64,000 bases of DNA from Eledone cirrhosa (taxonomy: Eukaryota), in assembly GCA_964016885.1 (NCBI GenBank), contig OZ024742.1:86242001-86306000 (forward strand), read 5' to 3'. Under the pieces are notes generated by a model that worked only from the letters and a program-made list of their open reading frames with translations, did no database searches and had not been told where the DNA came from. Of the stretch, positions 7,126 to 40,239 are shown in pieces (position 1 is the stretch's first letter; each line of letters begins with the position of its first letter). The translations under genes and the position numbers were made by a program.

Positions 7126-7216
7126 GGGTGCTAGATTGGCAGTATCGATAGAGAGTCTGTGGCACGATGCGTTGTAGCATAGATTTACCGCCTTTTACGG
7201 TATGAGTTCAAATCCA
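7126..7216 (+). mobile_element. SINE 5' tRNA head only, fused to a Tx1 3' fragment
   Basis: ATTGGCAGTATCGATAGAG...GAGTTCAAATCC, then an abrupt switch to Tx1 ORF2-end sequence. Confidence 0.8.
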
Positions 7217-7680
7217 GTTGCGAAAGTGTTTGTATGGTAACCCGGTTGAAGGACTGAAGACAGACACGTTTTCTCTTCGGCCAATCCCTTATCAACATTT
7301 TCAAATTTCACTTTGAAAGGAAGCTAAGGGAGGAGAGAGAAGTGTTGCCGTCCAGTGCATTTGCATATAGGTGGGTGAATGGGGCGAGAATGGCCTGTGT
7401 GAGTTGGCCCACTCTGATCATGTGCCTGCAGGCTGGTGAATTTGAGGAGGAGAGGGGTGCCCTTCCCGGGTGCCTTCGAATTGTCGGGTGGTTAAGGATT
7501 GGTGGCGTACCTGAATGTCCCTGAATACCATGCCCCCCTATTGGGGTATTTTTATTGATTTATTTTTCCTGTTTATTGTTATTGTTTTCCTATTTTTACT
7601 CGATTTTTACGTAAATCCCTACTGTCCCCGTCTATTACATTGTCTCCTATATGTCGGCCCTTGTGACCAATACATGAAAC
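7215..7680 (+). mobile_element. 5'-truncated L1/Tx1 3' end (related to copy F)
   Basis: Co-linear with 39500-39938 (FKFH...REVLP...RWVN..RMA, 3'UTR CCCCCCTATTGGG, GGCCCTTGTGA); ends in (ATT)n. Confidence 0.85.

Positions 7681-7712
<32 letters not shown>
7681..7712. repeat. (ATT)n linker, tail of Tx1 (+) and of R4/Dong (-)
   Basis: Pure TTA/ATT run between two tail-to-tail elements. Confidence 0.95.
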
Positions 7713-7713
<1 letters not shown>

Positions 7714-10700
7714 AGCTGCATTTATCATGCTTTATCACATTTATCTTGCTTTACGAGTTATCACCAAGTCACAACCAGTGACCTCAAGAGACAACAAGGT
7801 CCGCCATGTTCAAGAAAGAACATACATACTCACACATGCATCTTTAGGTGTTTAGACTTGTGATGTACTTATATTGACAGAATCTTCCTTAGTATATGGG
7901 CAGTTCCCATTAGTACTATCTTTTGTATTTCTCCTATACGCGGGTTTCCTGGGATTTGCGATAAGTAATCATTAGACCCATTAGGTATCATTCCTAGAGC
8001 GCCCACAACCACTGGTATTGTTTTAGTTCTCAATTTCCACATTTTTCCAATTTCTATCTCCAGGTCCTTATACTTGCTCAATTTTTCAAATGTTTTTATA
8101 GATACATTCTTGTCTATTGGAACAGACATATCAATTAGCAGGCATACCCTCTTTTTAAAGTCCTTCAATATTATATCAGGACTATTTGCATCTATTATTC
8201 GGTCTGTTTGGATGCTAAAGTTCGACAAGATTGAGATGTGATCTTTTTCAAGTATGGGAGGTGGTTGATGCTCCCACCAATTCTTTTGATGGGGCAGGTC
8301 AAAATGCTTACACATTATCCAATGTATGTATTGTGCTGCTCTGTCATGCCTGTTTAGGTATTCGGTTGGAGCTATAGGACTGCACATTGAAATTATATGG
8401 TCTATGGTCTCTGGTTGTTTTTTACATACACGGCATAATGGGTTGCATCCATTTTTTTTATTATGTTGGCTTGGTAATTTTTTGTTGGCAGACACTGATC
8501 TCGTGCTGATATAATCAGTCTTTCAGTCTCCGATTGCAGTCCAGAGGATGCCAACCACTGATGGGTTAAGTTTTTGTCAACATCAGGATTGTTAGCTCGT
8601 CTGGGTATTTTCCATACAGAGGCTTTTCTTGCCATTTCTTAGCCAGTTTCTGTAGCTGTTCTTTCTTTGCAGTTACTTTTACCTGCTTTGCTTTTTCTGT
8701 GTTTTCCATTTCAGCAATAAATGGGACTTCTGAAAATTGTAGTCCTTTACTGTATCTTTGTATTTTATAATGGAGTATGATCTTTTGATGCTTTCGTGTT
8801 TCAAAACGAGTTTGATCATCCAATCATGTGATTTCCTTAGATATGTAGATAATCCAATTGTTGCAGTTTTCAACGCAATATACTGGATTAACCCACGTCC
8901 TCCTTCTTTCCTAGGGAGATATGTTCTATCTGTATCTGCCTTAGGGTGATGCATTCTGTGCATGGTTAAGAATTTTCGAATTTTTGTATCGAGCCTACGG
9001 ATCTCTGTGCTTGACCAGTTGATGACATTGTAACTGTAGGTTACTACTGGTATGGCAAGCGTGTTTATGGCATCGATCCTATTCCTTGCATTGAATTCCG
9101 TTCTTAAGATTGCTCTTACTCTGCGGTAACATTCCTTCCTTATCCTTTCCCTCATTGTCGAGTGCTTTATTCCGTCTCCTTCACAAACACCTAGATATTT
9201 GTAAGTTTCCTCTTGATCAAGTTCTCTTATCACATTCCCCCGATCAAGATTAATGTCTGAACTTTTCAGCAGCTTTCCTCTGGTGAACGTTGCTTTCGCG
9301 CATTTATCTAGTCCAAACTCCATTTTAATGTCATCATTGAACTGCTCCACAGTGGATAATAGCCCTTGCAATTGTTCATCATTTTTTGCAAATAGTTTCA
9401 TGTCATCCATTTAGAACAAGTAATTAATGGTTTTGTGATAGACTTTATATCCATGTTTTGTTTCATTGAGCATTTTACTTAATGGTATTAGTGCGATGCA
9501 GAATAAAAGCGGTGATAAAGAGTCACCCTGAAAAATTCCACAATTAATATTAACTTCTCCAGCTTCCAGTGATTTTGTTTCACTATTCAAAAGTAGTGTC
9601 GTTCTCCATGTCTTCATACTGAATGACAAACACCTCCTGACAACGGGGGATATTTTGAAAATCTCTAAACATTTTTCAATCCAACTGTGTGGCAAACTAT
9701 CGAATGCTTTTTCATAATCTATCCAAGCAATTGATAGATTTTTGTGTCTATTATTTGTGTCTTCCAGTATCATTTTGTTAACCAAAAGCTGATCCTTACA
9801 GCCATATGAGCCTCGTTTACACCCTTTCTGCTCAATGGGAAATAGGTCATTTGTTATCAGGTGGTCATATGTATATTCAGTTAGGACTGATGTTAAAATT
9901 TTATACATTGTTGTCAAGCAAGTTATCGGTCTGTAATTTTTGGGATTGTTTGTCTCATCATTCTTCGGAAGCAGGAATGTAATGCCGTTAACTAGCCATG
10001 ATGGTATCTTTTCTGGCTCTTTAACTATTTCATTGTAAAGTTGGGCTAACAGCTCATGGGACTCTGTGAAGGTATTTATCCAAACATTTTGTATTTTGTC
10101 TTTTCCTGGGGATTTCCATGTGCTGGTTTTTCTTAGAGCCAAACGTAACTGTTCAACTGTTATATTTACCCATATTTGTTCCTCAAGGTGAGCTGTATCT
10201 TTCATTTGTCTGTCTATCCATGGGGCATGTATATTATGAACTTTTTCTTCGGGCCAGATCTTTTACCAGAATTCTTGCACTTCCTCCTTGGGTGGTATTG
10301 ATTTAGCAGTTATTGTTGACTTACCAATTTTTCTGTAGAAGTTTCTTTGGTTGTTTTTGAACATATTATTGTCCTTATAGAATCTAGATCGTTTTTCAAA
10401 GCGCCTTATACGAGCAGCTTTGGCCGACACTTTTTGCTTGATTATTTCTATCAGCATGTCTATGTCACTTGTTGATTTTATACTATACTTTCTTTTCAAT
10501 TTTCTAAGTTTAGTTTGTTTAACATGTTCACCTACTTTATAGTTTGTTAACATTTCTATGTCAGATCGGAGAAGGTTTATTTGGCGATTGATGTTCTCTT
10601 GCCAAGTAGATTTCTTGTGGGAATTCCTTTGTTTTTTCATCTTCACTCCACATAAGTGAGTGGTGACTTTAGCCGATGCATAATAGAGATGATTTAAATC

Positions 10701-11680
10701 AGTAATGTTTAGTTTGTTTGTGATGATAATGTTTTTGAGAATTATGTTAGTCTTGTGTATTATCTTTTGGTTCTATTTGGAGTTCTGGATCTTAGGACGG
10801 GTGTCTCGTTCCCCAATGTCAGATTCTTTCATTTTCATCCATTCGATCATAATTTCATCCTTCAAGTTGGCAAGTTCATTCTCATTCATTTCTTTATCAT
10901 TTACGATCTCATTGTTTTCATTTTGAGTTTCATCTTGAGCATGCACTCCCTCCACTTTTTCGATCCTTTCATTAATTTGTTCTGTTGTCAGTGATTCCGC
11001 CCCAACTCTGGGATTCGAAGAGTTACAATTTACCTTCGCTGACTTTGTGCTAATAGCTTGATCTGATCAATTTCTATATCAGTTAGTAACTTTTTTCTTA
11101 CAATATTTCTTCGTATATTGGCTAGTTTGTTACAGTCAATATAGCCTCTGTTTTCGGGATGTTTCTTTTTCCAGTTGATATATGTTTGTTCTGTATTCGA
11201 TGTATTTGATGGGTAGTACATGGCAGTGTAGAAAGCCTCAAGGACTTCTTTATTATCTTCCCTTGACCATTTTTCTCTCTTTTTCTTTGGATTTCTTGGT
11301 GGTGAGCATGGAGGGCCAACAGTAGGAGTATTCCGGTTATCGGAGGTCTCCAGCTCCGAAGTGATGGGAAGGTTTGAACCATTAGCTGATTTTTCGACCC
11401 CAGTCTGGTTCCTCTCTAAGGGACGCGGCCCTTTTTTACCCGGGTGACGGCCGATCCGGTATGAGATTTTATCATTAGACATTTACTTTATTTTGTCGCG
11501 TTTTATCCTTATCCGCCAAGGGGTAATCATTTCGTGTTACCACTTCTAGAACGAGTGTCAACCAAGACTAGAGGGGTCGTTCTCCCCTAGAGACATGGCT
11601 ATTCCCCGCCGACCGCCATCCCGGGATTTCTTGGTCACGGAGTTTTCTTTCTGTTGTTTTTTTTTTTAAATTGTTATTAT
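7713..11680 (-). mobile_element. R4/Dong-clade non-LTR retrotransposon family 1, near full length
   Basis: Single long RT+CCHC+RLE reading frame with ~200-nt 5'UTR, short 3'UTR and (TAA)n tail; 5' boundary approximate. Confidence 0.9.
7869..11482 (-). pseudogene. R4/Dong ORF (RT, CCHC, PD-(D/E)xK RLE) broken by stops and frameshifts
   Basis: Motifs YRPITCL, EQKGC, WIDYEKAFDSLPHSWI, GIFQGDSLSP, F*MDD, EGGRGL, CRVC..ETIDHIISMC, RHD, PDIILKD, EKLSKYKDL across consecutive ORF pieces. Confidence 0.9.
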
Positions 11681-11736
11681 CATGAGTGGTTCCTTAATGT
11701 GAGCATTGCGTGGCTTAAGAATGAAATTATTAATAA

Positions 11737-11778
11737 TTGTCTCCACTCCAGGCACAAGGTCAGCAATCACCCAGTGCA
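11737..11778 (-). mobile_element. SINE 3' tail fragment
   Basis: Reverse complement TGCACTGGGTGATTGCTGACCTTGTGCCTGGAGTGGAGACAA matches the SINE tail. Confidence 0.75.
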
Positions 11779-11789
11779 TTACAATAATA

Positions 11790-12792
11790 TAATATACTTT
11801 TTGTTGTAGTTGGCTGTTATTGTTGTTGGCTATGTCGGTGGTGGTGCCGGGGCTTTTTATATTGTTGGTGAGGAAGGGGTGAGCCAGCAGTCCCATAATT
11901 GTTGATGTAGACGTTTGGCCGGTGGCAAGGTCACCAAGTCAATCTATTTATATATTTTGCTAGCCTCTCTCTTGTCTAGTGATACCGCCACCTTCCCTTT
12001 TCTCTCTCAAGTTAACAGGGGAATAGTGTCGGTAGCATTGAATGAGTGTTGGCGGCGATGATGGATGCGGTGGGGTGGTGGCAGCGGTGGTGTTGTGGTT
12101 ACTGATATAGTATCTATGAGTTTGTGTTCGTATGTTTAATATATATTTTTATTATATTTTGTGTTGGCATATTCCCGTAAAATTTGAATTAAACATTTTT
12201 TAAAATTTGAGACAATAATAATAGTAATTATTATTATGATGCTGGTGAAATTGCCGTTATCTGGCTGTTATATTTAGTGTGATGGGATAGGTAGTGTATC
12301 AAGTTTCTGGTGTTGGTGAAATTGAAATTGCTGCTATTTGGCTGTTCTATATAGTGTAGACAGAGGGTGTTTTGTTCCATTTATAACCATTTTCTTTTTT
12401 TGAATACAAAATATATAATACAAAATTGAATATTTGAGCGATACAACAGTATAATATGGATCCGAAACTTTATGGGACCTCATTCGGTGCATTTATGCAA
12501 CATTTGTGCTAAGAATTGTTCTTTCACAATTGATTTAAATATGTTAAAAATCAAAAAACTTGCGGGGGCAATTTCGTGACGTTCTACCACCTCGTGCGTC
12601 TTCTTCCCTTCTGAATATTTGAGCGATACAACAGTATAATATGGATCCGAAACTTTATGGGACCTCATTCGGTGCCTTTATGCAACATTTTTGCTAAGAA
12701 TTGTTCTTTCACAATTGATTTAAATATGTTAAAAATCAAAAACTTACGGGAGCAATTTCGTGACGTTCTACCACCTCGTGCGTTTTCTTCCC
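11790..12792 (-). mobile_element. Probable 5' end (5'UTR plus low-complexity ORF1 start) of a Tx1-like element
   Basis: Minus strand has GCTCCCGTAAGTTT and CGCTCAAATATTCAA, resembling the 5'UTRs of copies C and F (GCTCTCGTAAGTTT, GCCCAAATATTTGAA), followed by CAA/CAC-rich sequence like the ORF1 N-termini. Confidence 0.5.

Positions 12793-12794
<2 letters not shown>
12427..12794. repeat. Tandem duplication, two ~185-bp units
   Basis: TGAATATTTGAGCGATACAAC... starts at 12427 and 12612. Confidence 0.95.

Positions 12795-12863
<69 letters not shown>
12793..12863. repeat. (ATT)n linker
   Basis: About 23 perfect units. Confidence 0.95.
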
Positions 12864-13810
12864 GTTTCAGTCTCAGTCATTGATATCAAGCCACTACCTG
12901 CAGCCTCAGATATTCAGGACGTATCGGATGGTTCTTGCTGTTACCAGCAAGCATGCCTTTTGAAGCGTTCCCAAAAGCGTGGCGGGGCCAATTTTCTTTA
13001 ACCATGCCTGGAAACTTGTTGAGACAATCGCGACCACGTTGACTTCATGGCAGTTCCAAATCCTTTTTACCTCCCACTTTAAGTCCTGGTATCGGTTAAT
13101 TTTCTCCCTCTCCTTCTCTTGCACTCTCGTGTCGAATGGGCAGACGACATCCACAATCAGGCACATGTTTTTTCTTTGTCCAAAACCACCAGGTCAGGTC
13201 TATTGTGTTCCAGTATCTTGTCCGTCTGTATCGTAAAATCCCACAGCACTTTCACCTGATCGCTGTCTATCACCGACTCTGGTTTATGCTCATACCACTT
13301 CCCAGAATGTGGTAAATTGTTTACTTTGCATAGGTGCCAGTGGATCACCCTGCCCATCACATCATGTCTCCAGCCTTTATAGTGAGTCTGGGCTAGATGT
13401 TTATTTGCCACCTTGAAGATCTCTAGGCTTTTGGTGATCCAAGAATGCAGGAGTATTGCTTTAAAAATATAACATCCCTCCACCCGAAACTGACAACCAT
13501 GTTCAATGACTGCTTGATGTCAGGTGAGGTACCGGAGTGGTTAACAAAATGTACAACAGTTCTGGTAATGAAAGACCGAATCAAGGGTAATGATGTTACC
13601 AACTACAGACCTATCACATGTCTGTCCGTAATGTGGAAACTGTTAAAATCTGAGGAAATCTACCATCACCTCCACACAAACAACTTGTTACCGGACGAAG
13701 TTTCTTATTGATAAGATTGTATTGAGGAATTGCAAGAGGAGACACACTGGTCTTGCCATAGGATGGATAGACTACAAAAAGGCATTTGACATGGTGCCTC
13801 ATTCTTGGAT
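12864..13810 (-). mobile_element. R4/Dong family 2, internally deleted, with 5' inversion (13448-13810 on +)
   Basis: Minus: RHDVMG...RPDLV...DVVCPFD...KINRYQDL; plus-strand part: NYRPITCL...DYKKAFDMVPHSWI; (ATT)n on both sides. Confidence 0.85.
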
Positions 13811-13840
13811 TATTATTATTATTATTATTGTTATTGTTAT

Positions 13841-15340
13841 TCCTTGAATCTCAGTCATTGATGTTGGTTAACTGGAAAGTCCGTTGGATTGAATATCAAG
13901 CCACTACCTGCAGCCTCAGATATTCAGGACGTATCGGAGGGTTCTTGCTGTTCCAAGCAAGCATGCCTTTTGAAGCGTTCCAAAAAGCGTGAAGGGGCCG
14001 ATTTTCTTTAACCATCCCTGGAAACATTTGAAGATAGTCCCCAGTGCGCCTATGACAATCGGGATCACTTTGACTTCATGGCAGTTCCAAATCCTTTTCA
14101 CCTCCCACTTTAGGTCCTGGTATCGGTTAATTTTCTCCCTCTCCTTCTCTTGCACTCTCGTGTCGAACGGGCAGGCCACACCCACAATCAGGCACGATCT
14201 TTTTTCTTTGTCCACAACCACCAGGTCAGGTCTATTGTGTTCCAGTTTTTTGTCCGTCTGTATCCTAAAATCCCACAGCACCTTCACCTGATTGTTCTCC
14301 ATCACCGCCTCTGGCCTATGCTCATACCATTTCTCAGAATGTGGTAAATTGTTTACTTTGCACAGGTGCCAGTGGATCACCCTGCCCATCACATCGTGTC
14401 TCCAGCCCTTATAGTGGGTCTGGGCTAGGTGTTTACACTCGGACACAATGTGAGCCACAGTCTCCTCTCTCTCTCTCCACAGATCCTGCACAGTGGGCTA
14501 GCCTCATCCTTGTAGATATGGTGCTTCAACCACTTCGTTTTGAGGGCCTGCTCCTGCGCAGCCATTAGCATTCCTTCTGTAGCCTTTTTGAGGTCTCCTC
14601 TTCTCAACCAGTTCCATGTCTGTGGATCTCTAAATTCAGTTTTCTCAAAGAAGGTACTATGAAGGGATTTTCCCTTAAGGCTGCTCTTCCTCCTTGATGT
14701 TATTTCCTCCTTGGACATCCCCTGGCCTACTGTCCCCTCCTTCAGTACAGTTCTGAGCATTGGCTCCTTACTATAGGTCACGTATTTGTATAGGTTGTTT
14801 TTCTCCATCTGAACACAGTCCTCTATGCTGATAAGACCTCTTCCACCCTCAGATGTCCTTAGGTAGAGTCTATCGACATCACTCCTCTTGTGGAACATGT
14901 TGTAGATAGTCAATAGCTTCCTAGTCTTCCTATCCATTTCTTTTTGTTCAGCAACATTCCATCTCAGAATTCCCGCACTGTACCTAATAATAGACACAGC
15001 TCGGGAATTTACTGCGCTTATGGCATTTCTGCTGTTCAGATGTGACTTCAATACGCTCCTTACTCTCCGAATGTATTCAGTTCTTAACAATTCCTTCATG
15101 TTTTTGTTCTTTATGCCATCAGCCTCCAGAACGCCCAAATACTTGTATCCTTCCTCAGAGTCAATTTCCTTTATCATCTCACCTGTTGGTATCTGGATCC
15201 CGTTACTTCTGCTCAACCTACCCCTCTTCATCACAATGACTCCACATTTACCAATACCAAACTGCATACATATATCACTGCTGAAAATACGGACAGTGTC
15301 AACAAGCACATCCAACTCCTTCTCACTTTTCCCGAAGAGC
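13841..15340 (-). mobile_element. R4/Dong family 2, 5'-truncated just after the catalytic DD motif
   Basis: KLFGKSEKELDV...YKYLG...EGGRGL...CRICG..EETVAHIVSEC..RHD..RPDL..D..KINRY; flanked by (ATT)n at 13811-13840 and 15341-15369. Confidence 0.9.
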
Positions 15341-15369
15341 TTATTATTATTATTATTATTATTATTATT

Positions 15370-18300
15370 GGCGACCTACGTAGTAAATCTTATCATCGTG
15401 AGCTCCGCAAAGCATTGTTGTTTTCGTTTGCTTAAAATTGCCATTTATAGAAAATGTATACTATTAACTGTATATAAGTGCACATACATTGTTTTCCGAA
15501 AAGGACACCCAAAATGATTGGGGCCTTGAGCCCAAAATTTAAACTTTTATAATTATCAAAAAAAAAACTTTTTTGGAAAAAATTTGGACGACTCACAGTC
15601 ACACGAATCTGACAGCCTTCCCCACAAACTAACACCTCACACCGACACCACCATTGTCAATATTACTATGTTTGCCAACACTAAAAATATAAGCAGTAGC
15701 AATATTTTAAATTTGTCTCAGGCAGATATTCATTTCCCGCCATTACCAATGACTGCAGGTGTTAAAGCCGCCACCACCACCACAACCGCGACAACAGAAA
15801 CAAAAGAAAAAAATTAATTAACTCGTGATATTGAAATGAATTCAACCAAAATGAACTCTTCCACACCGAACACCACTGACGCCACCGCCACCACAACTGA
15901 AACTAAAATTAATAATAACAAAAATAACGATAACAACAACAGCAACAATATAATTAAGAAAACCACCCTGAGTTTTGCCAGAGTAGTAAAAGAGTGCGAA
16001 GCATTTCAGGTAACTCAGGAGCAATTAGAAGAAGCCAAAAAAATGGTAAAGAAAGATGGGTACAGGGTCAGCCTCACCCCCCACCTAATAAAATGGAGCA
16101 TCGGCGCCTATGCACCGTGTCTTATCGAACAATTCATATAAAATCGCGCCGACTGGAACGGGCATCCGAGTCCCAAATCCAAAAAGCTTTGGGACATGTG
16201 TGGGCACAAAAAACCCACATCAGACGTGGGCAGAAATATGGAACCGTGGACGTGTTCTTTGAAACACCACAAGAGGCTAGAGAACACTCCATGGACCCAT
16301 TAAGAAGTGACGACTTCACACACGTCCCAAGTTATTGTGGTGAGAGACTCGTAAAGATCAGGGTCACCCACGTTCCACCGGCCATCGAAATTCCCTGGCT
16401 AATAGCTGCCGCCCTCGCCGGCATGGAAGTCAACACCAAAATAATCGAAATAGCGAAAGAAAGGCAGGAGAACTGGTCCGGATCTGGGATGGAGCTCCTG
16501 ATCCAAGCGCACCATAAAAGCATTGAGGAGATCCAAGAGGTAAAAAGGTTGAGGCCACCTCTCCTACCCACCCCAGTAACTCAACCATCAACACCACCAG
16601 CAGCAGAGATGGCAGCAACAACTGTAGCAGCAACAACAGAAGCAACTCTAACAGCCACAAACCCAGCAACAGTAACAAAACTAACACCACCACTACCCAA
16701 CGCGTCAGAACTAGCACCAGCGCCTACATAATCCACCACGCCACAACCAAAACCAACGCCTGTGGAGGATTTTCCACTCCCCGGCCTATCACAACTGGAG
16801 ACAGATTGTGACGACGAGGAGTGGGAAACGGTATCAGGAAAAATGAAAAAACAAAAGAAAAAAAGAAAAAAATTCTCTTCCTTCCCACTCCAAAAACAAA
16901 ATACAAAGGGAAACAAATAAATTATCAAACAAAAAAGTTAGGACAGATATGCCACCATCCACACCAGCATCACCAACCCCATCACCACGAACACCAACAC
17001 CATCACCGTCATTAACCCAAACACCACCATCACCAACACCACAAAAGTAACATAAAATCGAAACAGAAACAAACCCACAACAAACGCAAACAAAACAAAA
17101 CAACCAGAACGATACACACTACACAGCATTAAATTTGAACAACAACCTTGCCTTTCATCCTTACGGGGTCGATAATATAAAGTACCAGTAATACACTGGG
17201 AAATTGCTGGCCTTGTGCCAAAAGTAGAAACAATTAAATTTGAACAACAACCAATTATTACACTACATGCAACACAACACCAGAATCACAGAAAAAGACT
17301 ACACAACAATCCAAAAGTTCACACCACCTCCACACATACAAATCACTCGCATTACACAGAAAACGTACACGACACTAAAACAAAAATTCCCCAAAGACAT
17401 CGGAGACTTCCGACAAACACTGGAGGATTTATAAGGACATCCTTACAGAAGAGACCTCAAGCAGTGAAAAGGATGGACAAACCATCCTTCCTCTACGAGA
17501 AGTAAGGTAAGTGGTCTTTCTTATCTTTTCCACTCCATTTCAACATGACCTCACTCAGAATAGGCAGCATAAATGCGAGTGGCTTGGGTCGTCATGGAAG
17601 CAGGGCCACCTGCTCAACGACCTCAGGTCACTAAACATAGATGTAGTGGCCATCAGCGAGACCAGAATCTCCGAAGCACGGGCCTTCGCACCGATCTTCG
17701 GCGGCTACGATGTGTACGCATCTCCCATCGGTCCGGGATCGGGGGGAGGAGTTGCTGTGCTATTTCGAAGAGGTTTGGATCTCCCCAGACGGGCCATCTT
17801 CCTGGACCCAGAAGGTAAGTTGGTGGTGCTAGACGTGACCAGCGGAGACGGGCAAGCTTTCAGGCTAGTGGCCGTCTATGCCCCGACAGGAGCAGGGCGG
17901 CCCGATTTCTTCCGGCGTCTGGAGACCTTTCTTGGAACTTCCCACCCTTTAGTGTTAGTGGGCGACTGGAACGGGATCTTAGATGCACGCTGGGACTGTG
18001 TGGGATCAGCGGATAGGGGAGGAGGGTGAAAGAGCCTGACCAACCTGCTCAGGCGTGTTGAACTGTCTGACAGGTAACGATTGGATTTCCCGAATGTGCC
18101 AATGTGGACTTGGAGAAATCGCATAGGGTAATCCAGATCATATCTAGATAGAGTATTTTGTAGGGAAATAGATAAGTCTAGGATAGGCTGTCCACAATTC
18201 AAGATAGTCAACTACACGGACCACAAATTCGTGATCTGTGTCCTTGAGTTAGATATGCTTCATAAACGAGGACCCGGCTACTGGAAGCTAAACGCGTCCT

Positions 18301-20921: not shown

Positions 20922-20945
20922 ATTATTATTATTATTATTATTATT

Positions 20946-21336: not shown

Positions 21337-21354
21337 TTATTATTATTATTATTG

Positions 21355-21387
<33 letters not shown>

Positions 21388-21596
21388 GGCGACCTACGTA
21401 GGAAATCGTATTATCGTGAGCTCCGCAAAGGTTTGTTATTTCCGTTTGTTTAAAAATTACCATTTATGGAAAATTTTATTGTAAACTGTTTATAAGCACA
21501 CATACATTGTTTTCCGAAAAGGACACCCAAAAAGATTGGGGCCTTGTGCCCAAAATTTTAACTTTTATTATTATCCAAAAATTTCTTTGATAAAAA

Positions 21597-23588: not shown

Positions 23589-23622
23589 GTGGTCTTTCCC
23601 ATCTTTTCCACTCCTTTTCAAC

Positions 23623-26600: not shown

Positions 26601-27042
26601 GCATGGAGGTGCCGTCAGCCGGGCATGTCCGAGATGCGCGCAGGGCGACGAAACCGTCCTGCACGCACTTGTCCAGTGTCCGAGCATTGCTGACTTGTGG
26701 GTTTATGTCGAACACCTGCTGTCACGTGTAGGACCTATCCAGCTATCAGCTGAGTCCATCGTGAGGATTGCCCCGCCCCCTTCCTTTAGCCTGGAAGGGC
26801 AGGCAGTTTTTATCTGTCTGGTGGACATGGCGAAAGAGATAGTATGGTGGACACGTTTGAAAGGGCTGAAGACGAGCACTTACCTCTTCGGTGATGCCCT
26901 GATTAACTTTTTCAAATTTCATTTGAAAAGGAAAATCAGGGTAGAGAGGGAAGTGCTCTCTTCCCAGCATTTTGTTGAAAGATGGGTGAGAGAAGCAAGT
27001 ATGGCCCGAATGAATGGGCCTTCTCTGAGTATGTGTCTGTAA
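23623..27042 (+). pseudogene. Tx1 ORF2: AP endonuclease, reverse transcriptase, C-terminal zinc finger; two 1-bp frameshifts
   Basis: SINARG, ISETR, VYAP, GDWN, YLDRV, TDH (APE); KSPGLDG, FRPITLLN, LDQSKAFDRVDH, VRQGCPLS, AYADD (RT); CPRC..ETVLHALVQC. Frameshifts at ~24607 and in the G-run at ~25630. Confidence 0.92.
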
Positions 27043-27285
27043 ATTAAAGGTGGAAAACTGGGAGAGGGCACTTGCCCTGGTGGTCAGGGCCACTGTGGTC
27101 TTTTAATGGGCTTTCTCCACAAATGTCCCTTGGAAGTCTCCCCCCTATTGGGGAATTTTTCTTTTGTTATTTTATTTCAGCCTCTGTTTTTTTACACGCA
27201 GAAATGCCCATTTGTACCGTCCTGTATTGTCCTGTACTGTCCTTAATGTCTACTTTATGTGAACCCTTGTGGTTAATAAAGAAAA

Positions 27286-27286
<1 letters not shown>

Positions 27287-27339
<53 letters not shown>

Positions 27340-27396
27340 GCACTGGGTAATTGCTGGCCTTGTGCCAAACGTAGAAACAATTATTATTATTATTAT
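27287..27396. repeat. (ATT)n linker interrupted by a SINE 3' tail (27339-27380, +)
   Basis: (ATT)n-TGCACTGGGTAATTGCTGGCCTTGTGCCAAACGTAGAAACA-(ATT)n. Confidence 0.9.
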
Positions 27397-30300: not shown

Positions 30301-32268
30301 TGGTTACGGAACCTGGCACGGGTGGGGCCCTGATGAACTTGGATCAATCTAAAGTATTTCATATGGTCGACCATCGGTACCTGGCTACAATCCTCGAGGC
30401 GGCCTGCTTCAGGCCCGTTCTTAGGGACTAGATCGTTGCGATGCACATCGACATTTGCTCGATTGTGAGGATCAATGGTCACCTGTCGCAGCCTTTCAGC
30501 ATCATGCGCTCGGTTCGCCAGGGTTGCCCCCTCTCGTCCCTCTTCTCTGTCCTAGCCCTCGACCCGTTACTGCACACATTGGAGAAGATGAGGGGGGTCC
30601 CACCCGAACTGGGATGCCGGGGATCCAATCAGCTTACGCCGACGACGTCACCGTGGTGGTGTCGAGTACAAACACGTCCAGATGCTCGGCACCACTGTCA
30701 AGGAATACGAAGCGGTGACAGGAGCAAAGATAAACCAGGAAAGGTTGGTGGGCTTGCAGCTCGGCACCTGGAGAGGCAAGTGCATGCCGTCCGACAGCGT
30801 CACGGGGCGCTGGACGTAAGGACCGGTTAAATTGCTCGGTGTCCGGTTCGGTCCGGACATCCAGATGGAGAATAACTGGAGCGTATTGCCGAGCAGAGTG
30901 GCCTCTCTCATCCAGAAATGGGCCGAGGGGAGGCTGTCTCTGAAAGGTCGGGCGGAGTTGGCGAATGCGTACATTGCGTCCGTCATCTGTTACCGCCTGA
31001 TCGTCGTACCTTTCCCCCGCCCAACTCTTTCAAAAATGGAACGCCTTCTATTCCGCTTACTGTGCAAGGGACGTGCTCCCATGGTCAGACGATCCATTTG
31101 CTCTCAACACCCATTGCGTGGAGGACTAGTCATGCCGTGGCTTATGATGCGCAAACATGCGCTGAGGCTGCGATATCCCTGGTGCTACCTTGGCGGTGAA
31201 CAGGTGTGGTCGCCGTTTGCCAGATGTGCTTTTCCCCAGTTCGTATCCTTTACGGAGCTGCAGTCCTGGATTTGGAAAAGACTGAGGGATAGCGGTTGGA
31301 AGCTGGAATGTCTCCAAGCAGTCACCACCCTCTACCAGCTGGGCACTAGTATCGGTGGAACATCAACCTCGGCGTTCTATATAGGACTAGTTGAAGAAAG
31401 AGCGACGACGTTCTCGGGGAGACCCTGGGCGTCAAACGCGATCAGCTGTTCGCTCTCTTCGATAAAACTTTCAGGCCGGCGCCTATGGACAACTTCCAGA
31501 AATCCCTGGCCTGCCAGTGCTACCGGGGAGCGTATCGGTTCAGGATATGCTCTATAGGCACGAAGGTGCCGTCTGCCGAGCCTGTTCGAGATGCGCGCAG
31601 GGCGACGAAACCAACCTGCACGCACTCGTTCAGTGTCCGAGGATTGCTGACTGTGGAACTATGTCGAACAGCTGGTGTCGCGTGTAGGACGGATCCGGTT
31701 ATCGACTGAGTCCATTGTGCAGATAATCTCGCTATCCTCCTTTAAAGATGTGTAACGGCGGGCAGTTTTCATCTGCCTGGTGGCCATGGCGAAAGAGATT
31801 GTGTTCTGGACAAGGTTGAAAGGGTTGAAGACAGACACTTTCCCTCTCCGGCCCATCCCTCATTAACCTTTTCAAGTTTCACTTGAAGAGAAAAATCACG
31901 GTGGAGAGGCAAGTGCTGTCTTCTAGTAAGTTTGTTGAAAGGTGGGTGAAAGTGGCGAGTCTGGTCTGAATGAACGCACCAGCTCTAAGTATACACCTGT
32001 AGACTGAGGAGTGGGAAAATTGAGAGAGGGCGCTTGCCCTGGTGGTCAGAGTGGCCGTGTTCTTTTGTGTGGTTTTCACTACAAGTGACTCTCGGAAGTT
32101 TCCCCCTTCTTGAGAAATTTCTGTTCGTTTGAATTTTTTTTGGATTTCTAGCCCGATTTTGTTATAACCTGTTTACACGACCAAAATCCACTTTGTATCG
32201 TCCTGTACTGCTCTGTGGCGTCTCTAATGTTTTCCTTCGTGTCAGCCCTTGTGGCCAATAAAGAAACC
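27397..32268 (+). mobile_element. L1/Tx1 copy C (family 2), degenerate
   Basis: Distinct 5'UTR and Asn-rich ORF1 with CYLCGQEGHLMAFC; deletion into ORF2; APE/RT remnants (FRPITLLN, VRQGCPLS, AYADD); ends GGCCAATAAAGAAACC+ATTATT. Confidence 0.9.
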
Positions 32269-32275
32269 ATTATTA

Positions 32276-32742
32276 GATAGTATGGTGGACGCGTCTGAAA
32301 GGGCTGAAGAAGAGCCCTTACCGCTTCGGTGATGCCCTGATTAACTTTTTCCAATTTCATTTGAAAAGGAAATCAGGGTAGAGTGGGAAGTGTTCTCTTC
32401 CCAGCATTTTGTTGAAAGATAGGTGAGAGAGGCAAAAATGACCCGAGTGACTGGACCTACTCTGAGTATGTGCCTGTAAATTGAAATGGAAACTGGGTGA
32501 GGACACTTGCCCTTGTGGTCAGAGTCACCTTGGCTTTTTTTAAAGGGTTTTCTCCATGATGGCCTTTGGAAGTCATCCCCCTATTGGGGAATTTTTCATT
32601 GTTCCTTTTTTGTTACATACTCAGTTTTTGGTTTTTTTACACGCAGAAAGGCCCATTTGTACCGTCCTGTATTGTCCTGTATTGTTCTGTACTTTCCTTA
32701 ATATCTTACTTTGTGTAAACCCCTGTGGTTAATAAAGAAAGC
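32276..32742 (+). mobile_element. L1/Tx1 copy D, 3' fragment (family 1)
   Basis: Homologous to ~26836-27286; ATT tracts on both sides. Confidence 0.9.
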
Positions 32743-32760
32743 ATTATTGTTATTATTATT

Positions 32761-35332
32761 AAAATTGCTAGGAGTCGGGTTCGGCCCGGACCTCCAGACG
32801 GACAAAAACTGGGACGAGGTGACGAGCAGGGAGGCTTCTCTCATCCAGAGATGGGCAGAGAGGAAGCTATCCCTGAAAGGTCGAGCGGATGTGGCGAATG
32901 CGTACATCGCATCCGTCATCTACTACCGCCTGACCGTCGTACCTTGTCCTAAGCCTCGCCTGACTGCACTGGAGCGTTCTCTCTTTCGCTTTTTGTGGAA
33001 GGGATCGCTCCGAACGTCAGGCTGTACATCTGCCGTCAACACCCGCTACGTGCGGGGCTGGGCATACCGTAGCTGATGACGCGCAGACACGCGCTCAGGC
33101 TACGGCATCTCGACCTCTTCATCGACGGTGATCAGGTGTGGTCGCTGTTTGCTAAATGCATCTTTCCCCAGCTCGTCTCCTTGACGAAGCTGCAGTCCTG
33201 GGTCAAGCGAAGACCGAGAGGGTGCGCTTGGAGACTGGAATGTCTTCAGACGCTCCCTGCCCTCGACAAGTCGGGCAATGTCATCGGTGAAAACACCACC
33301 TTGGCATTCTATAGAGAATTAGTGGAGGGGAAGCGCAACGACGTACTTGGGGAAAATCTAGGCGTTGACGCAAATCAACTAGCCAATCTCTTCGGAAGAA
33401 CGTTCGGGCAGGGACCCATGGACAATTTCCATAAATCCCTGGCCTGGCAGTGCTAACGAGGAGCTTTGCCAGTTCGGGATAAACTCTACAGGCATGGAGG
33501 TGCCGTCAGCCGGGCATGTCCGAGATGCGTGCAGGGCGACGAAACCGTCCTGAATGCACCCGTACAGTGTCCTGCATTGCTGACTTGTGGGTTTGTGTCG
33601 CACACCTGCTGTTGCGTGTAGGACGGATCTGGCTATCAGCTGAGTCCATCGTGAGGATTGCCCCGCCTTCTTCCTTTAGCCGGTAAGGGCAGGCAGCTTT
33701 TATCTGTCTGGTGGCCTTGGCGAAATAGAGAGTATGGTGGATGCGTCTGAAAGGGCTGAAGACGAGCACTTACCTCTTCGGTGATGCCCTGATTAACTTT
33801 TTCAAATTTCATTTGAAAAGGAAAATCAGGGTAGAGGGGCAAGTGTCCTCTCCCAGTTTTCCACTTTCAATTTACAGGCATATACTCAGGGTAGGCCCAT
33901 TCACTCGGGCCATTCTTGCCTCTCTCACCCCCCATCTTTCAACAAAATGCTGGGAAGCGAGCACTTCTCCCACTGGACGACTGCATGAAGGAGGGTTTCG
34001 TCACCCTGCGCGCATCTCGGCCATGCCCTGCTGACGACATTCCATGCCTGTAGAGTTTATCCCGAACTGGCAAAGCTCCTCGGTAGCACGGCCAGGCCAA
34101 CAACAATGAGAGTAACAACTACATCAACACCAGCGCAAAACAAAATGTGTCGCTTGCTAAAGCAGCCCCGCAAAACGAGACAGTCGAAGTTAGCCAGGTT
34201 GAATTGAATGAAGCCAAGCGAATGGTAAAAAAAGATGGCTACAGGGTCAGCCTCACCCCCACATCTAATAAAATGGAGCGTCGGCGCTTATGCACCCTGT
34301 CATATCGGTCGATAAACACAAAATGACCCCGAGTGGAACGGGCATCCGAGTCCCAGATACAAACACTTTGGGACTTGTGTGGGCGGAAAAAATCCACGTC
34401 AAATGTGGGCAGACATGTGGAACCGTGGACGTGTCTTTGGAACCCCACAAGGCCCCATTAAAAAGTGGCTCGTCCCAACCTATTGTGGTCAGAGGCTCGT
34501 GAGGTTCCGCCGGCCATTGAAATTCCCTGGCTAATGGCTGCCCTCATTGCCGATATCGAGGCCAACACTAAATTAATGGAGGTGATAAAAGTAAAGCAGG
34601 AGAACTGGTCAGTATCTAGGATGAAGCTCCTGATCCAAGCGGACCTAAAAAACATACAAGAAATTTCAGAAGTGATATACCTCAATGACGGCAGCCACGT
34701 CACCGTAATCATTGAGGGTAGAAGGTCTAGGTATGTCGTTTGTGTCGAAGGAACCCACCTAAATGCTTTCAGCCCTCAGGCTAAAAAAATGAGGCCACAT
34801 CTCCTACCCACCCCAGCGACTCAACCATCAAAACCAGGGGCAGAAATGGCAGCAAGAACTCTATCAGCAATAACAGAAACAACTATAGCAGCAACAACAG
34901 CAACAGCTTTAGGCACAACAGTTGCAAAACCAACATCACCATCACGCGCCAGAATTAGGACCAGCACCTCCACCATCCACCACGCCACAACAAAAACCAG
35001 CACCTGTGAAAAATCAGGGATAGATTTGAAAAGAAAATCAGGGTAGAGAGGGAAGTACTCTCTTCCGAGCATGTAAATTGAAGGTGGGAAACAGGGAGAA
35101 AGCACTTGCCCTGGTGGTCAGGGTCACCGTGCCCTTTTTAATGGGCTTTCTCCACGAATGTCCCTCGGAAGTCTATTGGGGAATTTGTTATTGTTTATTT
35201 TTGAGTTACATTCTCTGTTTTTGTTTTTACACACAGAAATGCCCATTTGTACCGTCCTGTATTGTCCTGTATTAAACTGTATTGTCCTTAATGTCTTACG
35301 TTGTGTAAACCTTGTGGGTTAATAAAGAAAGC
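32761..35332 (+). mobile_element. L1/Tx1 copy E, rearranged composite (ORF2 3' part, two inverted pieces, ORF1 piece, 3' end)
   Basis: 32761-33840 ORF2 3' half; ~33840-33968 and ~33971-34098 inverted; 34099-35008 ORF1-like; 35009-35332 3' end plus (ATT)n. Confidence 0.85.
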
Positions 35333-35349
35333 ATTATTATTATTATTAT

Positions 35350-38300
35350 GATTGAATCTGAACGGACGTCTTTTTTCTCGCTCTCGTAAGTTTATTTATT
35401 TACCTCTCAAAACTTATTGAATTTGTTTGTTGTTGTGTAAGGCATGCAAGCTTTTTTGGCCCAAATATTTGAACTTTTTTACATTTTAAAAAATTATCGA
35501 GAAAAAAACAACGACAACCAAAATACAGATAACAGAAAAAATGACAAATGCAACAACAATATCAACACAACTAACATGAAAACAAATAGCGACAACACCA
35601 ACAACAACAATACCAAATGCACCGAGAACAACGGCGGCACCAAAGACAACAATGATAACAGCGACAGTGAAAACAACAACACCAACAAGAATAAAGACAA
35701 CAACAACACCACCAATGACTAAGAAGAACACTTTCGCTGCGGCAGAAGCCAAAAAGAGGCCAAGCTTCAACATGGACCTCTCGAACAAAGATGAAAAGTT
35801 GGCCCATGCCTGGAAGCTCATCAAGCAAGAGCAAACCTGGGCCAACTTAACTGTCCCGGTAGAAGCTATTAAGGCAGTGTAGTGCAGAAAGGTGCATTAT
35901 AGATGCATTTCAGCACAAACCAAAAGGGCAGCTTTAATTCCAAAAGCAGATATCGAAGTCGCGCTGAGGTGCATGAGGGATGACACCGAATACATAGCGA
36001 GGGGCAGACAATACGGCACCATTTCGGTGCTGTTTAGTTCAGAAGCCCTCGTTATGAAACATGCTATGCCACCTTACAAAACCAGCAAGGTCATAATGTA
36101 CCCCTACCACATGGGAAAAAGAACAGCCCGTCTCCGCATTCCCAGAATCCCACCAGGACTTGACATATGGTGGCTTCTAGGATGTTCGATTGTGGTGGGG
36201 AGGGATACAGTCCCGATAGAAGTGACAAGAAATGCCAAATGGAATGGTCCGGGTTGACCTGGAGATACTTCCCAAGATCAGGCCGGAGAATGTGAAGACA
36301 ATCCCGGACCACATCCGCCTTCAGAATGGGACGGTCATTCATATTATGACCGAGGGAAAAAGGCCGCATTGTTTTGTTTGTGGAGAAAAAACTCATTTGG
36401 GAGCCTTCTGCCCTCAACTGCTTAAAGATGCAAAGGGTCGAAGGGCTCCACTGCTACCGACGCCGGGGTGAGGACCACAACCAACACCAGCACCGGCAAA
36501 ACCACCAGCAACAAAACCAATAGAAAGACCACCACCAACATGGACCACCCAGGGGGGAACGAGGAAAGTATCAAATTCCTCCTCCCCCCAAAAGTACACA
36601 CATCAATAAGAACATAAACACACACAAACACACTAACAGCCACAGACACCTTATCTCCCAGTAGTGAAGATGAGGGAAAATCAAAATCCCCCAAAATACA
36701 AAAAAGAAACACATAAAGAAAAAACAATCTCAACAAAGCACAAAAACATCCACAATAAAAAATGCCGACACCACCTACGCAAACATCTCCCCAACAACAT
36801 CAACATCAACACCACCATCACCTTCACCAGAATCCCCCAAACGCAAACAACCTAAACAGACACAAGAACAAATACACACACAAACATCTGAAACCACATA
36901 CACCGCACTAACAACAAACACAGACACAATCGAAACAACACCGTCATAACAATCACCACCACAACCACGCAAACAAATAAAATCACACCACAAAACATAC
37001 AAAATTCGTGCTCGTCAGGAGGGCCAACAAGGAACTGATGGCCATCGTAGCACGAAGTGAAGATATACAAAAAGTGGGGGAAATTTTAAAATCGAATACA
37101 TTTCGAGTACCGGAAGATTTGTTTTTTGTGCGAATAGGGTCATAGGGTCATCAAGATCGTATATAGACAGGATATTCATTAGGAAAATAGACAGAATTAG
37201 TGTAAGCTGTCCACGTTTTGAAACGGTCGCCTATTCAGATCACGAGTTTGTGATCTGTATGGTCGACCTAGATAAGACGCGTAGGTTAGGACCTGGTTAC
37301 TGGAAGCTAAACATGTCATTTCCGGCACTTAAGGCTTACAGGTACCAGGTCAACAACTTAGTTAAGAAAAGTTGACAGGGGGAGTCGTCAACAATAGATG
37401 GTGGGGGGCTCTCAAAAGAGAGATTAGAGTAATGTCGATAGAGTTTAGCAAAGAAGGAGTGTTAGAAAAAAATAGAAAGGAGTGGTAATTGGTAGATAAG
37501 TTAGACGAGGTTATTTGTAGTAGCATTGCAACTAACGTGCTAGCGAGAGAATGGCATTAGACGATTTCTTCAATGCGAAACATGAAAGTGCATTGTCAGA
37601 GCTATGACGCGTGCTCTGAGAAACGAGGGAACCAAAGCTGTTACAGAGGCTCGCGTGGCAGAGGCGCAGCGTGGTATTAAAACCAAGATTCGGTCTTTGA
37701 CGGACCGAGATGGACACGAGCTGAGCGATTCCAAGCGGATGTGTGAGGCCTTTCGCCAACATTTTGCTCGGTTGTTCGGGGGTTGTGGCGGGTCAGAGAC
37801 GGTGGCGGACTTCAGTCCCTAATTCGATGGTTTGCCACAACTCTCAACAGGCGAGGCTGGGTACTGCGAAAGGCCAATTACTTCAGCCGAGCTTCAGGAT
37901 GCCCTTGCCGGCTGCATGAGGCGCAAGTCACCCGGTTTGGATAGTCTGCCCTACGAACTTTACATAGCTATGCCAGATTTGTTCTCCAATCTCCTCAAAG
38001 AGCCTTACTGCAACTGGCAGCAGAACGGGAGTATTCCCAGTTCCGTTATCCGGGGCGTAGTGACGCTGAGAAGGAAAGACGAGTACAAGAGGGACACATT
38101 AGACCATTTCCGCCCCATAACTCTGCTCAACACAGAGTTTAATATTTTGGCCAGGGTGTTAGCGAAGAGGTTGGCGCTTGTCGTCGGGGATTTGGTTGGG
38201 GAGGCGCAAACTTGCGCAATCCCAACCAGGTCCATACAGGACCACCTCCACCTGGGTGTAAACCTGGCTTCGGTGTAAACCTGGCTTCGGTGGTACTGAT

Positions 38301-39938
38301 TAATTTAGATCAATCGAAAGCATTCGATAGGGTCGGCCCCGTCTTCAGAAGCTGGATCGCTGCAATGTACAGCAGCACCTGCTCGGGTATCAAAATCAAT
38401 GGCCACCTCTCAGACCCGTTTCAGGTCTCCCGATCGATCCGTCAAGAGTTCCCGCTCTCCTCCCTTCTGTAGATATTGACTCTCGAGCGAAACTTAACCC
38501 GGAAAAGTCGGTGGGCTTGCAACTCGGCACCTGGAGAGGCAAGTCCATGCCGTCCAACAGCGTCGTAAGGCGCTGGACGGACGGACCGGTAAAGTTGCTC
38601 AGGGTTTGGTTCGGGCCAGACCTCCAGGTGGATAAGAATTGGGACGAGGTGACGTGCATGTTAGCCAGTCTCACCCAGAAATGGACTGCGAGAAAGCTAT
38701 CACTGAAAGGTCGGGCGGAGCTGGTGAACCCGTACATCGCGTCCGTCATCTACTACCGTCTGACCGTTGTCCCCTGCCCCCGTTCGCGCCTCGCTATCTT
38801 GGAGCGGCTTTTCTTCAAATTATTGAGGAGGGTCAGTTTCCCTTGGTGAGGCGGTCCATCTGCTGCCAGCACCCTCTACGTGGAGGGCTGGGCATGCCGT
38901 GGCTAATGATGCGAAGGCACGCGTGGTGGCTTCGGCATCTCCAGATATTCTGCCTAAACGGTGACCAGGTATGGTCGCCGTTTGTCAGACGGGCCTTTCC
39001 GCAGCTCGGCTCTTTGACTGAGCTACTGTCCTGGGTCAAAAATAGACCGTGCCTGGATGACTGGCATGTGAAATGTTGCCTTCTACCATGCGGGCAATGC
39101 GGTCAGTGGAACTTCCACTTTCGAGTTCTATAGAGGATTACTGGTGGGCAAGTGCGACGTCGAACTCGGAGAGGGTCTGGGCGTCGACGAAGTCGAACTA
39201 ACCAGTCTTTTCCGTAGGACATTCGAGCCGAGAACAATGGATAATTTCCAAAAATCCCTCGCTTGGCAGTGCTACCGGGAGGCACTGCTCTCAGACGGAC
39301 CTGCCCGAGATGCGCGCAGAGCGACGAAATCATTCTGAACGCACTCGACCAGTGTCCGTGCATTACTGATTTGTGGAGTTATGTCAAACAGCTGTTGACC
39401 CGTGTAGAACGGATCCGTCTATTGGCCGAGTCCATAGTGAAGATCGACCCGCCGCCTTCTTTTGGCCAGGAGGGACAGGAGATGTTCCTCTGTCTGGTGG
39501 CAGTAGCGAAAGAGGTTGAAAGGACTGAAGACAAACACTTTTCTCCTCGGCCAATCCCTCATCACCTTTTTCAAGTTTCACTTGGAAAGGAAGGTGAGGG
39601 TGGAGAGAGAAGTGCTGCCCCCAAGTATATTTGCTGAAAGGTGGGTGAATGTGGCGAGAATGGCCCGTGTGAGTGGGCCTAATTTGGTCATGCGCCTGTA
39701 GGTGGCTACATTTGAGGAGAAGAGAGGTGCTCTTCCAGGGTGCTCTCAAAGCGTCGGGATGTTCAGGATTGGTGGGGTACCTGAGCGAACCCTGGTTGGT
39801 CATTCCCCCCTATTGGGGAATTTTTCTTGTATTCTTATTGTTACTTTGTTATTGTTATTCATATTGTTTACTCGACTTTTTTGTAAAACCCCACTATTGT
39901 TCCCTATATGTCGGCCCTTGTGAGCAATAAATGAAAGC
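35350..39938 (+). mobile_element. L1/Tx1 copy F (family 3), degenerate
   Basis: 5'UTR after (ATT)n; divergent ORF1 with CFVCGEKTHLGAFC; deleted APE N-terminus; RT remnants KSPGLDS, FRPITLLN, LDQSKAFDRV; ends CAATAAATGAAAGC+ATTATT. Confidence 0.9.
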
Positions 39939-39942
39939 ATTA

Positions 39943-40085
39943 TTTACGTCGTTAGCTCCATTCCCGCCGAGCATTGCTTTGCCTTTTTTCCTTGCGGGGT
40001 CGATCAATTTAGCAACAGTAACATACTGGGTCTGATTTAATTGACTTTCACATCCCCTTCAATTGCTGGCCTAAAGTAGAAACAA
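39943..40085 (+). mobile_element. SINE 3' half (box B onward), diverged
   Basis: TTCCCGCCGAG..CTTTGCCTTT..CCTTGCGGGGTCGAT...AATTGCTGGCCTAAAGTAGAAACAATTATT. Confidence 0.8.
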
Positions 40086-40239
40086 TTATTATATTTTTAT
40101 TAGTGTTATTTTTCTTGTTATCATTATATTCTGTAAGTGTTTATCTGTGATATGTTTGAAAGCATTTCAAATATTTGTTTTACAATCTATATCATGATAT
40201 TTAATTGTTATGTATACATTTACTCTCCAATATCACATG

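What the first reader, a model, noticed from the sequence alone, without database searches (positions are those of the whole stretch)
7215..40090. Self-extending ~33-kb retrotransposon chain on (ATT)n: Tx1 on one strand, R4/Dong on the other
Seen: from 12793 to 40090 almost every element boundary is an (ATT)n tract (12793, 13811, 15341, 20922, 21337, 27287, 27381, 32269, 32743, 35333, 39939; also 7681). All seven Tx1 copies with a 3' end read on + and end in (ATT)n. All four R4/Dong copies here, plus one at 55320, read on - and end in (TAA)n, the same repeat on the other strand. Elements mostly sit between one another, not inside ORFs. Known: Dong-type R4 elements target (TAA)n, and TRAS/SART share (TTAGG)n in opposite orientations. 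Inference: two clades with different endonucleases (APE vs RLE) share one target, and each insertion leaves a new target as its tail, so the array grows itself as an interstitial safe haven. The minus-strand piece at 11790-12792 is an exception.
Basis: partly seen in the sequence, partly recalled or inferred. Interest (0 to 1): 0.88.

Follow-up and report, generated by a model that had tools for sequence, protein, structure and literature searches.

The report
Jumping genes copy their landing site
Two unrelated kinds of jumping gene keep landing in the same ATT repeat, facing opposite ways, and copy part of it as they land, which likely explains the long mixed chains seen here and at many other places in this animal genome.

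Summary
Observation confirmed, and it holds genome-wide. The window has seven L1/Tx1-type 3' ends on the ATT strand and four R4/Dong-type copies on the TAA strand, of mixed ages. In the genome, 2,178 of 2,299 TxA starts follow TATTATT (background 0.045%). Fourteen of 17 R4 starts lie within 25 kb of a Tx end, all 14 on the opposite strand. Four other clusters have the same build. A third repeat with an internal ATT tract gives empty and filled sites. One tract of 5-9 units becomes n+1 tracts, and one Tx insertion duplicated a whole tract (49 bp). So the chain does extend its own target, but through target-site duplication more than through an element-made tail. 'Safe haven' is untested, and no long reads were available. 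Dong on TAA, Tx1 on other microsatellites, TRAS/SART polarity and Keno/Utopia sharing are all precedents. I did not find an ATT-targeting Tx1-type family in nine literature searches. The scan noted this twice before on other pieces of this genome. Verdict: new variant of a known kind.

The parts
7216..7680 (+). old L1/Tx1-type 3' fragment, left edge of chain
   Evidence: 78% to TxC 3' end; best match among fetched loci 80%
7681..7712 (+). (ATT)10 tract, Tx 3' end meets R4 3' end
7713..12792 (-). full-length R4/Dong-type element R4A (RT, CCHC, PD..D endonuclease; broken by stops); 5' leader about 11650-12792 with a private 185-bp tandem duplication
   Evidence: about 98% to other copies
12793..12863 (+). 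(ATT)23 tract
12864..13808 (-). R4B copy, 3' part 12864-13405, with an inverted RT piece about 13406-13808 on + (twin-priming-like 5' inversion, inferred)
13809..13836 (+). (ATT)7 tract
13837..15343 (-). young 5'-truncated R4B copy
   Evidence: 99% to other copies
15344..15369 (+). (ATT)9 tract
15370..20921 (+). near-full TxA copy T1, with nested SINE piece 17144-17232 (duplication of about 16-20 bp starting ATT) and fold-back 20544-20721
20922..20945 (+). (ATT)8 tract
20946..21336 (-). short young R4A 3' fragment
   Evidence: 98.7% to other copies
21337..21387 (+). (ATT)5-gg-(ATT)10 tract
21388..27286 (+). full-length young TxA copy T2 (ORF1 with CCHC knuckle; ORF2 APE-RT-zf-RVT, frameshifted)
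   Evidence: 99% to many copies
27287..27394 (+). (ATT)17, SINE 3' fragment 27340-27379, (ATT)5
27395..32268 (+). older Tx family copy TxB, followed by ATTATT
   Evidence: best match 87%
32275..32742 (+). 5'-truncated TxA-like copy, then imperfect ATT tract to 32761
32762..35332 (+). rearranged Tx block: sense piece to 33856, inverted pieces 33837-34099, ORF1 piece 34213-35008, 3' end to 35332, then (ATT)5
35348..39938 (+). older Tx family copy TxC, followed by ATTATT
39943..40090 (+). SINE fragment closing the chain
54636..55738 (.). second mini-chain inside host repeat H: (ATT)7, TIR element 54659-55100, SINE + 55129-55307, (ATT)4, R4B - 55320-55714, ATT tract, right half of H

Best explanation
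The chain is a pile of separate retrotransposon insertions of different ages into (ATT)n repeats, L1/Tx1-type elements on the ATT strand and R4/Dong-type elements on the TAA strand, and filled sites hold more repeat than empty ones, so the chain likely grows by copying its own target. Shown: target preference, polarity, clustering, target duplications starting at ATT, and one tract becoming n+1 tracts. Inferred: the Tx APE endonuclease nicks the TAA strand and the R4 restriction-like endonuclease nicks the ATT strand, each freed end primes reverse transcription on the element RNA, and this fixes the opposite orientations. Staggered second-strand cutting copies 7-49 bp of target, and slippage lengthens it. 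Because long ATT tracts in this genome mostly sit beside these elements, later insertions land there without any extra homing. The SINE probably borrows the Tx machinery.
For: 2,178 of 2,299 TxA starts directly follow TATTATT against 0.045% background. R4 starts: 589 of 1,141 follow TAA/GAA in exact phase; 18 of 20 sampled others have (TAA)5+ within about 20 bp. Of 99 neighbouring Tx 3' end pairs on C1, 39 lie within 20 kb (4.2 expected; local shuffles at most 18) and 34 of 39 share a strand. 14 of 17 R4 starts lie within 25 kb of a Tx end (7.2% of the span), 14 of 14 opposite. In evenly spaced samples Tx ends at tracts are sense 8 of 8 and R4 ends antisense 8 of 8. Host repeat H: of 28 copies read, 6 empty, 7 Tx sense, 12 R4 antisense, 2 SINE sense, 1 other. 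Eight single insertions with both H halves hold about 9-20 units (median about 14) against 5-9 in empties; L292 has a 49-bp duplication that includes 25 non-repeat bases and the whole tract. Empty/filled pair L152/L131: 11 units against about 3 + 24. Window copies match other copies at 79-99%, interleaved.
Against: Only 11 of 20 readable 5'-truncated Tx junctions are ATT-type (2 CTT, 1 opposite TAA, 6 none or unclear; read by eye), so specificity is looser than full-length copies suggest; full-length RNAs may carry ATT at their 5' end. Some Tx 3' ends have a single ATT (L123, L134). H hits were chosen with a query holding (ATT)7, so tract lengths are biased, and invaded tracts may have been longer beforehand. 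Two tandem TxE pairs are 98.5% and 99.7% identical, so tandem duplication cannot be excluded for them. No long reads; short-read data were uninformative. Nicking positions are inferred.
Confidence: 0.85

Rival explanations
1. Both clades target pre-existing ATT microsatellites but add no net target; arrays form only because tracts are limited and are split by each insertion.
For: Tx and SINE 3' repeats are often just the target copy. Recognised neighbours at the tails of young TxA copies (17 of 30 tract rows) are not far above the share of sampled tracts that touch Tx or R4 (11 of 24).
Against: Filled H sites exceed empties, up to about 80 units over 5 tracts in L310; L292 duplicates the whole tract; L131 exceeds L152.
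Confidence: 0.1
2. Arrays grow mainly by unequal recombination or tandem duplication between ATT tracts.
For: Near-identical tandem TxE pairs in L126 (99.7%) and L157 (98.5%), though unlinked copies are 99.2% alike too; some clusters are segmental duplicates (L059/L060, L131/L152).
Against: Neighbouring window copies differ (T1 vs T2 85-94%; R4 and Tx alternate), and truncation points differ between copies.
Confidence: 0.03
3. The chain is an assembly mis-join through ATT repeats.
For: Reads could not test it: one search gave only short repeat-derived pieces and no long reads were found.
Against: No N in the window. Mis-joins would not keep both halves of host repeat H in order around inserts (15 of 26 loci flagged, one more seen by eye), nor make unique-sequence duplications. 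The same build recurs in four other clusters.
Confidence: 0.02

Closest known systems
Dong (R4 clade; Bombyx Dong, DongAg, snail DongBg)
   Same: TAA-microsatellite target (PMC3812793, passages); RT plus CCHC plus PD..D endonuclease here; Dong-R4 families are active in Octopus vulgaris (PMC13282606, passages).
   Different: Here it shares the repeat with an APE clade. Dong has an HDV-like 5' ribozyme (PMC3774820, passages); none was found here. R4A and R4B carry a shared leader of about 1.1 kb instead.
Microsatellite-specific Tx1 families Kibi (TC)n, Koshi (TTC)n, crocodilian (TTCC)/(TTTC) families; Tx1-Mar with SINEU
   Same: APE-type L1-group element preferring a microsatellite; a SINE sharing Tx1 machinery (PMC4494074, passages).
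   Different: Target is (ATT)n, with some CTT junctions. No ATT/TAA-targeting Tx1 appeared in the passages read; that paper's figure and supplements could not be seen.
TRAS and SART in Bombyx telomeres
   Same: Two families inserting into one repeat in opposite orientation and forming arrays (PMC10088271, passages).
   Different: Both are R1-clade elements in telomeric repeats; here two endonuclease classes use interstitial tracts that the insertions themselves multiply.
Keno (Tx1, APE) and Utopia (RLE) in U2 snRNA genes
   Same: APE and restriction-like clades converged on one site (PMC4640811, passages).
   Different: Same 3' flank, hence same orientation; the target is a host gene and the two are not described as building mixed chains.

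Membership tests
L1 group (L1/Tx1) | ORF2 with N-terminal APE endonuclease, RT and C-terminal zinc motif | tested here: met
   Intact 1,139-aa ORF2 in L136: Exo_endo_phos, RVT_1, zf-RVT above cut-off; best solved relative LINE-1 ORF2p, E 1e-51, against R2 1e-20
L1 group (L1/Tx1) | Upstream ORF1 with CCHC knuckle | tested here: met
   CX2CX4HX4C in the 22063-23103 frame; no significant Pfam family
Tx1 clade | RT phylogeny with named Tx1 elements | not testable with these tools
   No labelled Tx1 reference came back
Tx1 clade | Target-sequence preference, no poly(A) tail at insertions | tested here: met
R4/Dong clade | Single ORF, RT then CCHC then PD..D restriction-like endonuclease, no APE | tested here: met
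   best solved relatives are R2 proteins
R4/Dong clade | (TAA)n at both ends on the element strand | tested here: met
R4/Dong clade | RT phylogeny with R4 and Dong | not testable with these tools
   120 listed relatives carry no clade label; the R4/Dong label rests on architecture, target and recall
R4/Dong clade | HDV-like ribozyme at the 5' end | tested here: inconclusive
   No Rfam hit; a strict home-made descriptor found none in R4A and did not cover the R4B leader
TRAS/SART telomeric arrays | R1-clade elements in telomeric repeats | tested here: not met
   Interstitial (C3 86.2 Mb of 378.9 Mb), ATT repeat, L1-group and RLE elements
SINE-LINE partner pair | Shared 3' tail and insertion geometry | tested here: met
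   Similar last 20-25 nt by eye; SINE duplications start at ATTAT in 17 of 20 readable cases, of 30 sampled; mobilisation itself not tested

The most novel reading that the evidence does not exclude
These chains are a self-made, telomerase-free habitat in which LINEs of different clades also trade 5' modules. R4A and R4B (39% protein identity) share a leader of about 1.1 kb laid out like a Tx1 5' UTR plus ORF1 start, and TxA and TxE share ORF2 but not ORF1. The R4 elements would then have captured a Tx1-type promoter across clades.
Probability: 0.3. Interest if true: 0.75.

Novelty: new variant of a known kind. Interest (0 to 1): 0.55.

Why it matters
It adds a likely new target, (ATT)n, for L1/Tx1-type elements and shows two endonuclease classes splitting one repeat by strand at thousands of sites. 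The empty and filled copies of host repeat H make target self-amplification measurable, a positive feedback that helps explain transposon clustering and long ATT microsatellites in large cephalopod-type genomes. Intact young copies exist (L136), so the strand choice of the two enzymes on one substrate can be assayed directly. Each ingredient has a precedent, which limits the surprise.

Tried and rejected
The 11790-12792 piece as a minus-strand Tx1: rejected. HDV-like ribozyme: not found. Tx origin of the R4 leader: pairwise scores z 4-6.5 for the best pairs, several pairs not above background; a profile of six Tx 5' UTRs did not find the leaders (absent at E up to 10; leave-one-out E 0.2-33), but it also scored true TxE at only E 1.2, so unresolved. 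Reads: seven runs listed, best share 0.21, none long-read; laying four on 27340-40200 gave only repeat-derived short pieces. Spanning by reads stays open. Clade labels from protein collections: none returned. A direct pattern for empty H sites matched only the window, because the right flank used was a nested TIR element. L122 and L134 first looked like an empty/filled pair but are both R4B 5' sequence.
Full report
Setting. The window is G000:C3:86,242,001-86,306,000 in a 3.0-Gb genome and has no N. The closest named relatives of the Tx reverse transcriptase are from Argonauta hians (60-73% identity) and a cuttlefish (46%), so the host is probably a cephalopod; that is inference.

The observation. 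ATT tracts lie at the stated places, though 32269 and 39939 have only two units. Self-comparison and Pfam show + strand elements with APE endonuclease, RT and zf-RVT, and - strand elements with RT, a CCHC knuckle and a PD..D motif. The full map gives seven Tx 3' ends and four R4-type copies in 7.2-40.1 kb, plus SINE pieces. The best match of each copy among fetched loci ranges from 79% to 99% and ages are interleaved (a sample, not the genome). The claimed exception at 11790-12792 is the R4A leader: 29 of 29 other top hits continue into the R4A ORF region. Non-ATT boundaries are the left edge, two inversions and the block 33837-35071.

What the elements are. A natural copy (L136) has an intact 1,139-aa ORF2 whose best solved relative is LINE-1 ORF2p. 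The R4A protein matches R2 proteins best. No labelled Tx1, R4 or Dong reference was returned. 'Tx1' and 'R4/Dong' therefore rest on architecture, target and recall; L1-group and RLE-type are shown.

Target preference. A 23-base TxA start pattern has 2,299 matches, and 2,178 directly follow TATTATT. Background is 543 in 1.2 million strand positions of 60 evenly spaced 10-kb samples. The shared R4 start has 1,141 matches, 589 of them in exact TAA/GAA phase. Of 20 sampled others, 18 have five or more TAA within about 20 bp, one has a GAA/TGA mix and one a short TAATAA. Against strict specificity, only 11 of 20 readable truncated Tx junctions are ATT-type; 2 are CTT, 1 is opposite TAA, 6 have none or are unclear (by eye). 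I left out L017 and L019 (internal rearrangements) and L125, L143, L144 (diverged 5' parts); L131/L152 count once. Full-length TxA starts had six or more perfect units in 46 of 46, though an older copy fetched later shows about three. Full-length RNA may therefore carry ATT at its 5' end; this is untested.

Polarity and clustering. Over all tracts of four or more units in loci L002-L220 (the window's own loci left out), Tx ends were sense 185 to 3, R4 ends antisense 214 to 1, SINE ends sense 41 to 1. These rows include the query ends and overlapping loci, and three exceptions come from one degenerate tail. In the unselected samples alone the counts are 8 of 8 and 8 of 8. The first 100 of 8,830 Tx 3' ends give 39 of 99 gaps under 20 kb against 4.2 expected, and 34 of 39 share a strand, against 28 of 47 for distant pairs. 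Fourteen of 17 R4 starts in that span lie within 25 kb of a Tx end, all on the opposite strand. Five of 61 clusters span over 20 kb, which would scale to roughly 400 genome-wide if that span is typical. Four clusters fetched in full are mixed, polarised chains; one also holds a 469-bp inverted Tx piece and another an old opposite Tx fragment outside the chain.

Does the chain make its own target? The SINE shows the geometry. In the unselected samples 28 of 30 SINE tails have two or fewer ATT; 20 of 30 have a duplication of 8-20 bp, 17 of them starting ATTAT right after the SINE end. Tx copies in imperfect targets show duplications of about 7 bp (L129), 16-19 bp (L150), 34 bp (L126) and 49 bp (L292). 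Some Tx 3' ends have a single ATT, so the tail is often target, not product. The best test is a third repeat, H, with an internal tract. Of 29 other top hits, 28 could be read: 6 empty (5-9 units), 7 Tx sense, 12 R4 antisense, 2 SINE sense, 1 other. In 26 filled or other loci followed for 10 kb, the right half of H reappeared in 15, and in one more by eye. Eight single insertions hold about 9-20 units in two tracts, median about 14. L310 holds four elements and about 80 units in five tracts. L292 duplicates 25 non-repeat bases and the whole tract. A duplicated locus gives 11 units empty and about 3 + 24 after an R4A insertion. Limits: the H query held seven ATT, invaded tracts may have been longer, and slippage acts afterwards. 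The window's copy at 55320 is itself part of such an H mini-chain.

Why clusters form. In 600 kb of samples, 11 of 24 tracts touch a Tx or R4 end, and 8 of 11 tracts of nine or more units do (by eye). Young TxA tails have a recognised neighbour in 17 of 30 rows. The target pool is thus dominated by element-flanking tracts, and proportional use is enough; no homing to arrays is needed. The strand of nicking is inferred from the orientation and from duplications starting at ATT, by analogy with target-primed reverse transcription (established knowledge).

Rivals. A mis-join is unlikely given the ordered H halves and unique-sequence duplications, but reads could not test it. Tandem duplication may explain two near-identical TxE pairs but not the alternating families. 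'Safe haven' is untested; most window copies are broken, and SINEs do insert inside elements.

Side lead. R4A and R4B share a leader at about 73% though their proteins are 39% identical. It aligns by eye with six Tx 5' UTRs; the best pair scores beat 360 genomic controls, but a profile search was not significant. Its upstream frame stops after 18-36 codons. Shared 5' ends between LINE families have precedents (PMC4758252, section 10 read).

Literature. Nine searches. I read passages only of PMC13282606, PMC4494074 (supplements not readable, and its figure of Tx1 targets is not held), PMC3812793, PMC3774820, PMC9115989, PMC4640811, PMC10088271 and PMC4758252. They give Dong on TAA, Kibi and Koshi on TC and TTC, TRAS/SART in opposite orientation, Keno and Utopia on one site, and active Dong-R4 and L1-Tx1 families in Octopus vulgaris. 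None of these passages describes an ATT-targeting Tx1 family or mixed polarised chains. Kojima and Fujiwara 2004 and Repbase were not seen and may hold one. Two earlier scan reports describe the same system elsewhere in this genome, and a note on this window names the SINE pairing; I had recorded my reading before seeing them and do not count them as support.

Verdict. Real and genome-wide; a new variant of known target-specific retrotransposon arrays; interest 0.55.

Noticed in passing
window 11650-12792; L225 2340-3437; L231: R4A and R4B share a 5' leader (73-74% over the first 365-640 nt) although their proteins are 39% identical; its layout resembles the Tx 5' UTRs and, in R4A, it ends in a SINE-tail remnant.
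   Followed up: partly
L157 767-6787, L126, L147 and others: Family TxE has the ORF2 and 3' end of TxA but a different 5' UTR and ORF1, joined at TxA nt 2154.
   Followed up: partly
window 54659-55100: Element with 48-bp terminal inverted repeats and TTA on both sides, inserted in the ATT tract of host repeat H; PIF/Harbinger-like by recall.
   Followed up: partly
window about 54250-55780; L261-L316: Dispersed composite repeat H (1,764 first-look candidates) with an internal ATT tract invaded in 21 of 28 copies read; its identity is unknown.
   Followed up: partly
window 17144-17232 and L135: SINE copies of different length sit at the same site inside TxA (nt 1919-1936), both with a duplication starting ATT; possibly a hot spot.
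   Followed up: partly
window 20440-20721 and 33683-33967: The same fold-back junction near the Tx 3' end occurs twice in opposite orientation (95% identical), at a short imperfect inverted match.
   Followed up: no
L100, L128, L134, L148, L157, L181: (CTT)n/(GAA)n tracts occur at some Tx and R4 junctions, often abutting ATT tracts; second target or repeat conversion.
   Followed up: partly
window 44385-45590 (-): ORF with a GIY-YIG domain, probably a Penelope-like element; an RT fragment lies at 46501-47193 (+).
   Followed up: no
L162 and L167: Other sequences that end in ATT tracts and match none of the library; possibly further ATT-linked families.
   Followed up: no
window 48075-48538 and 48614-49077: Direct repeat of 465 bp at 96% identity.
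   Followed up: no
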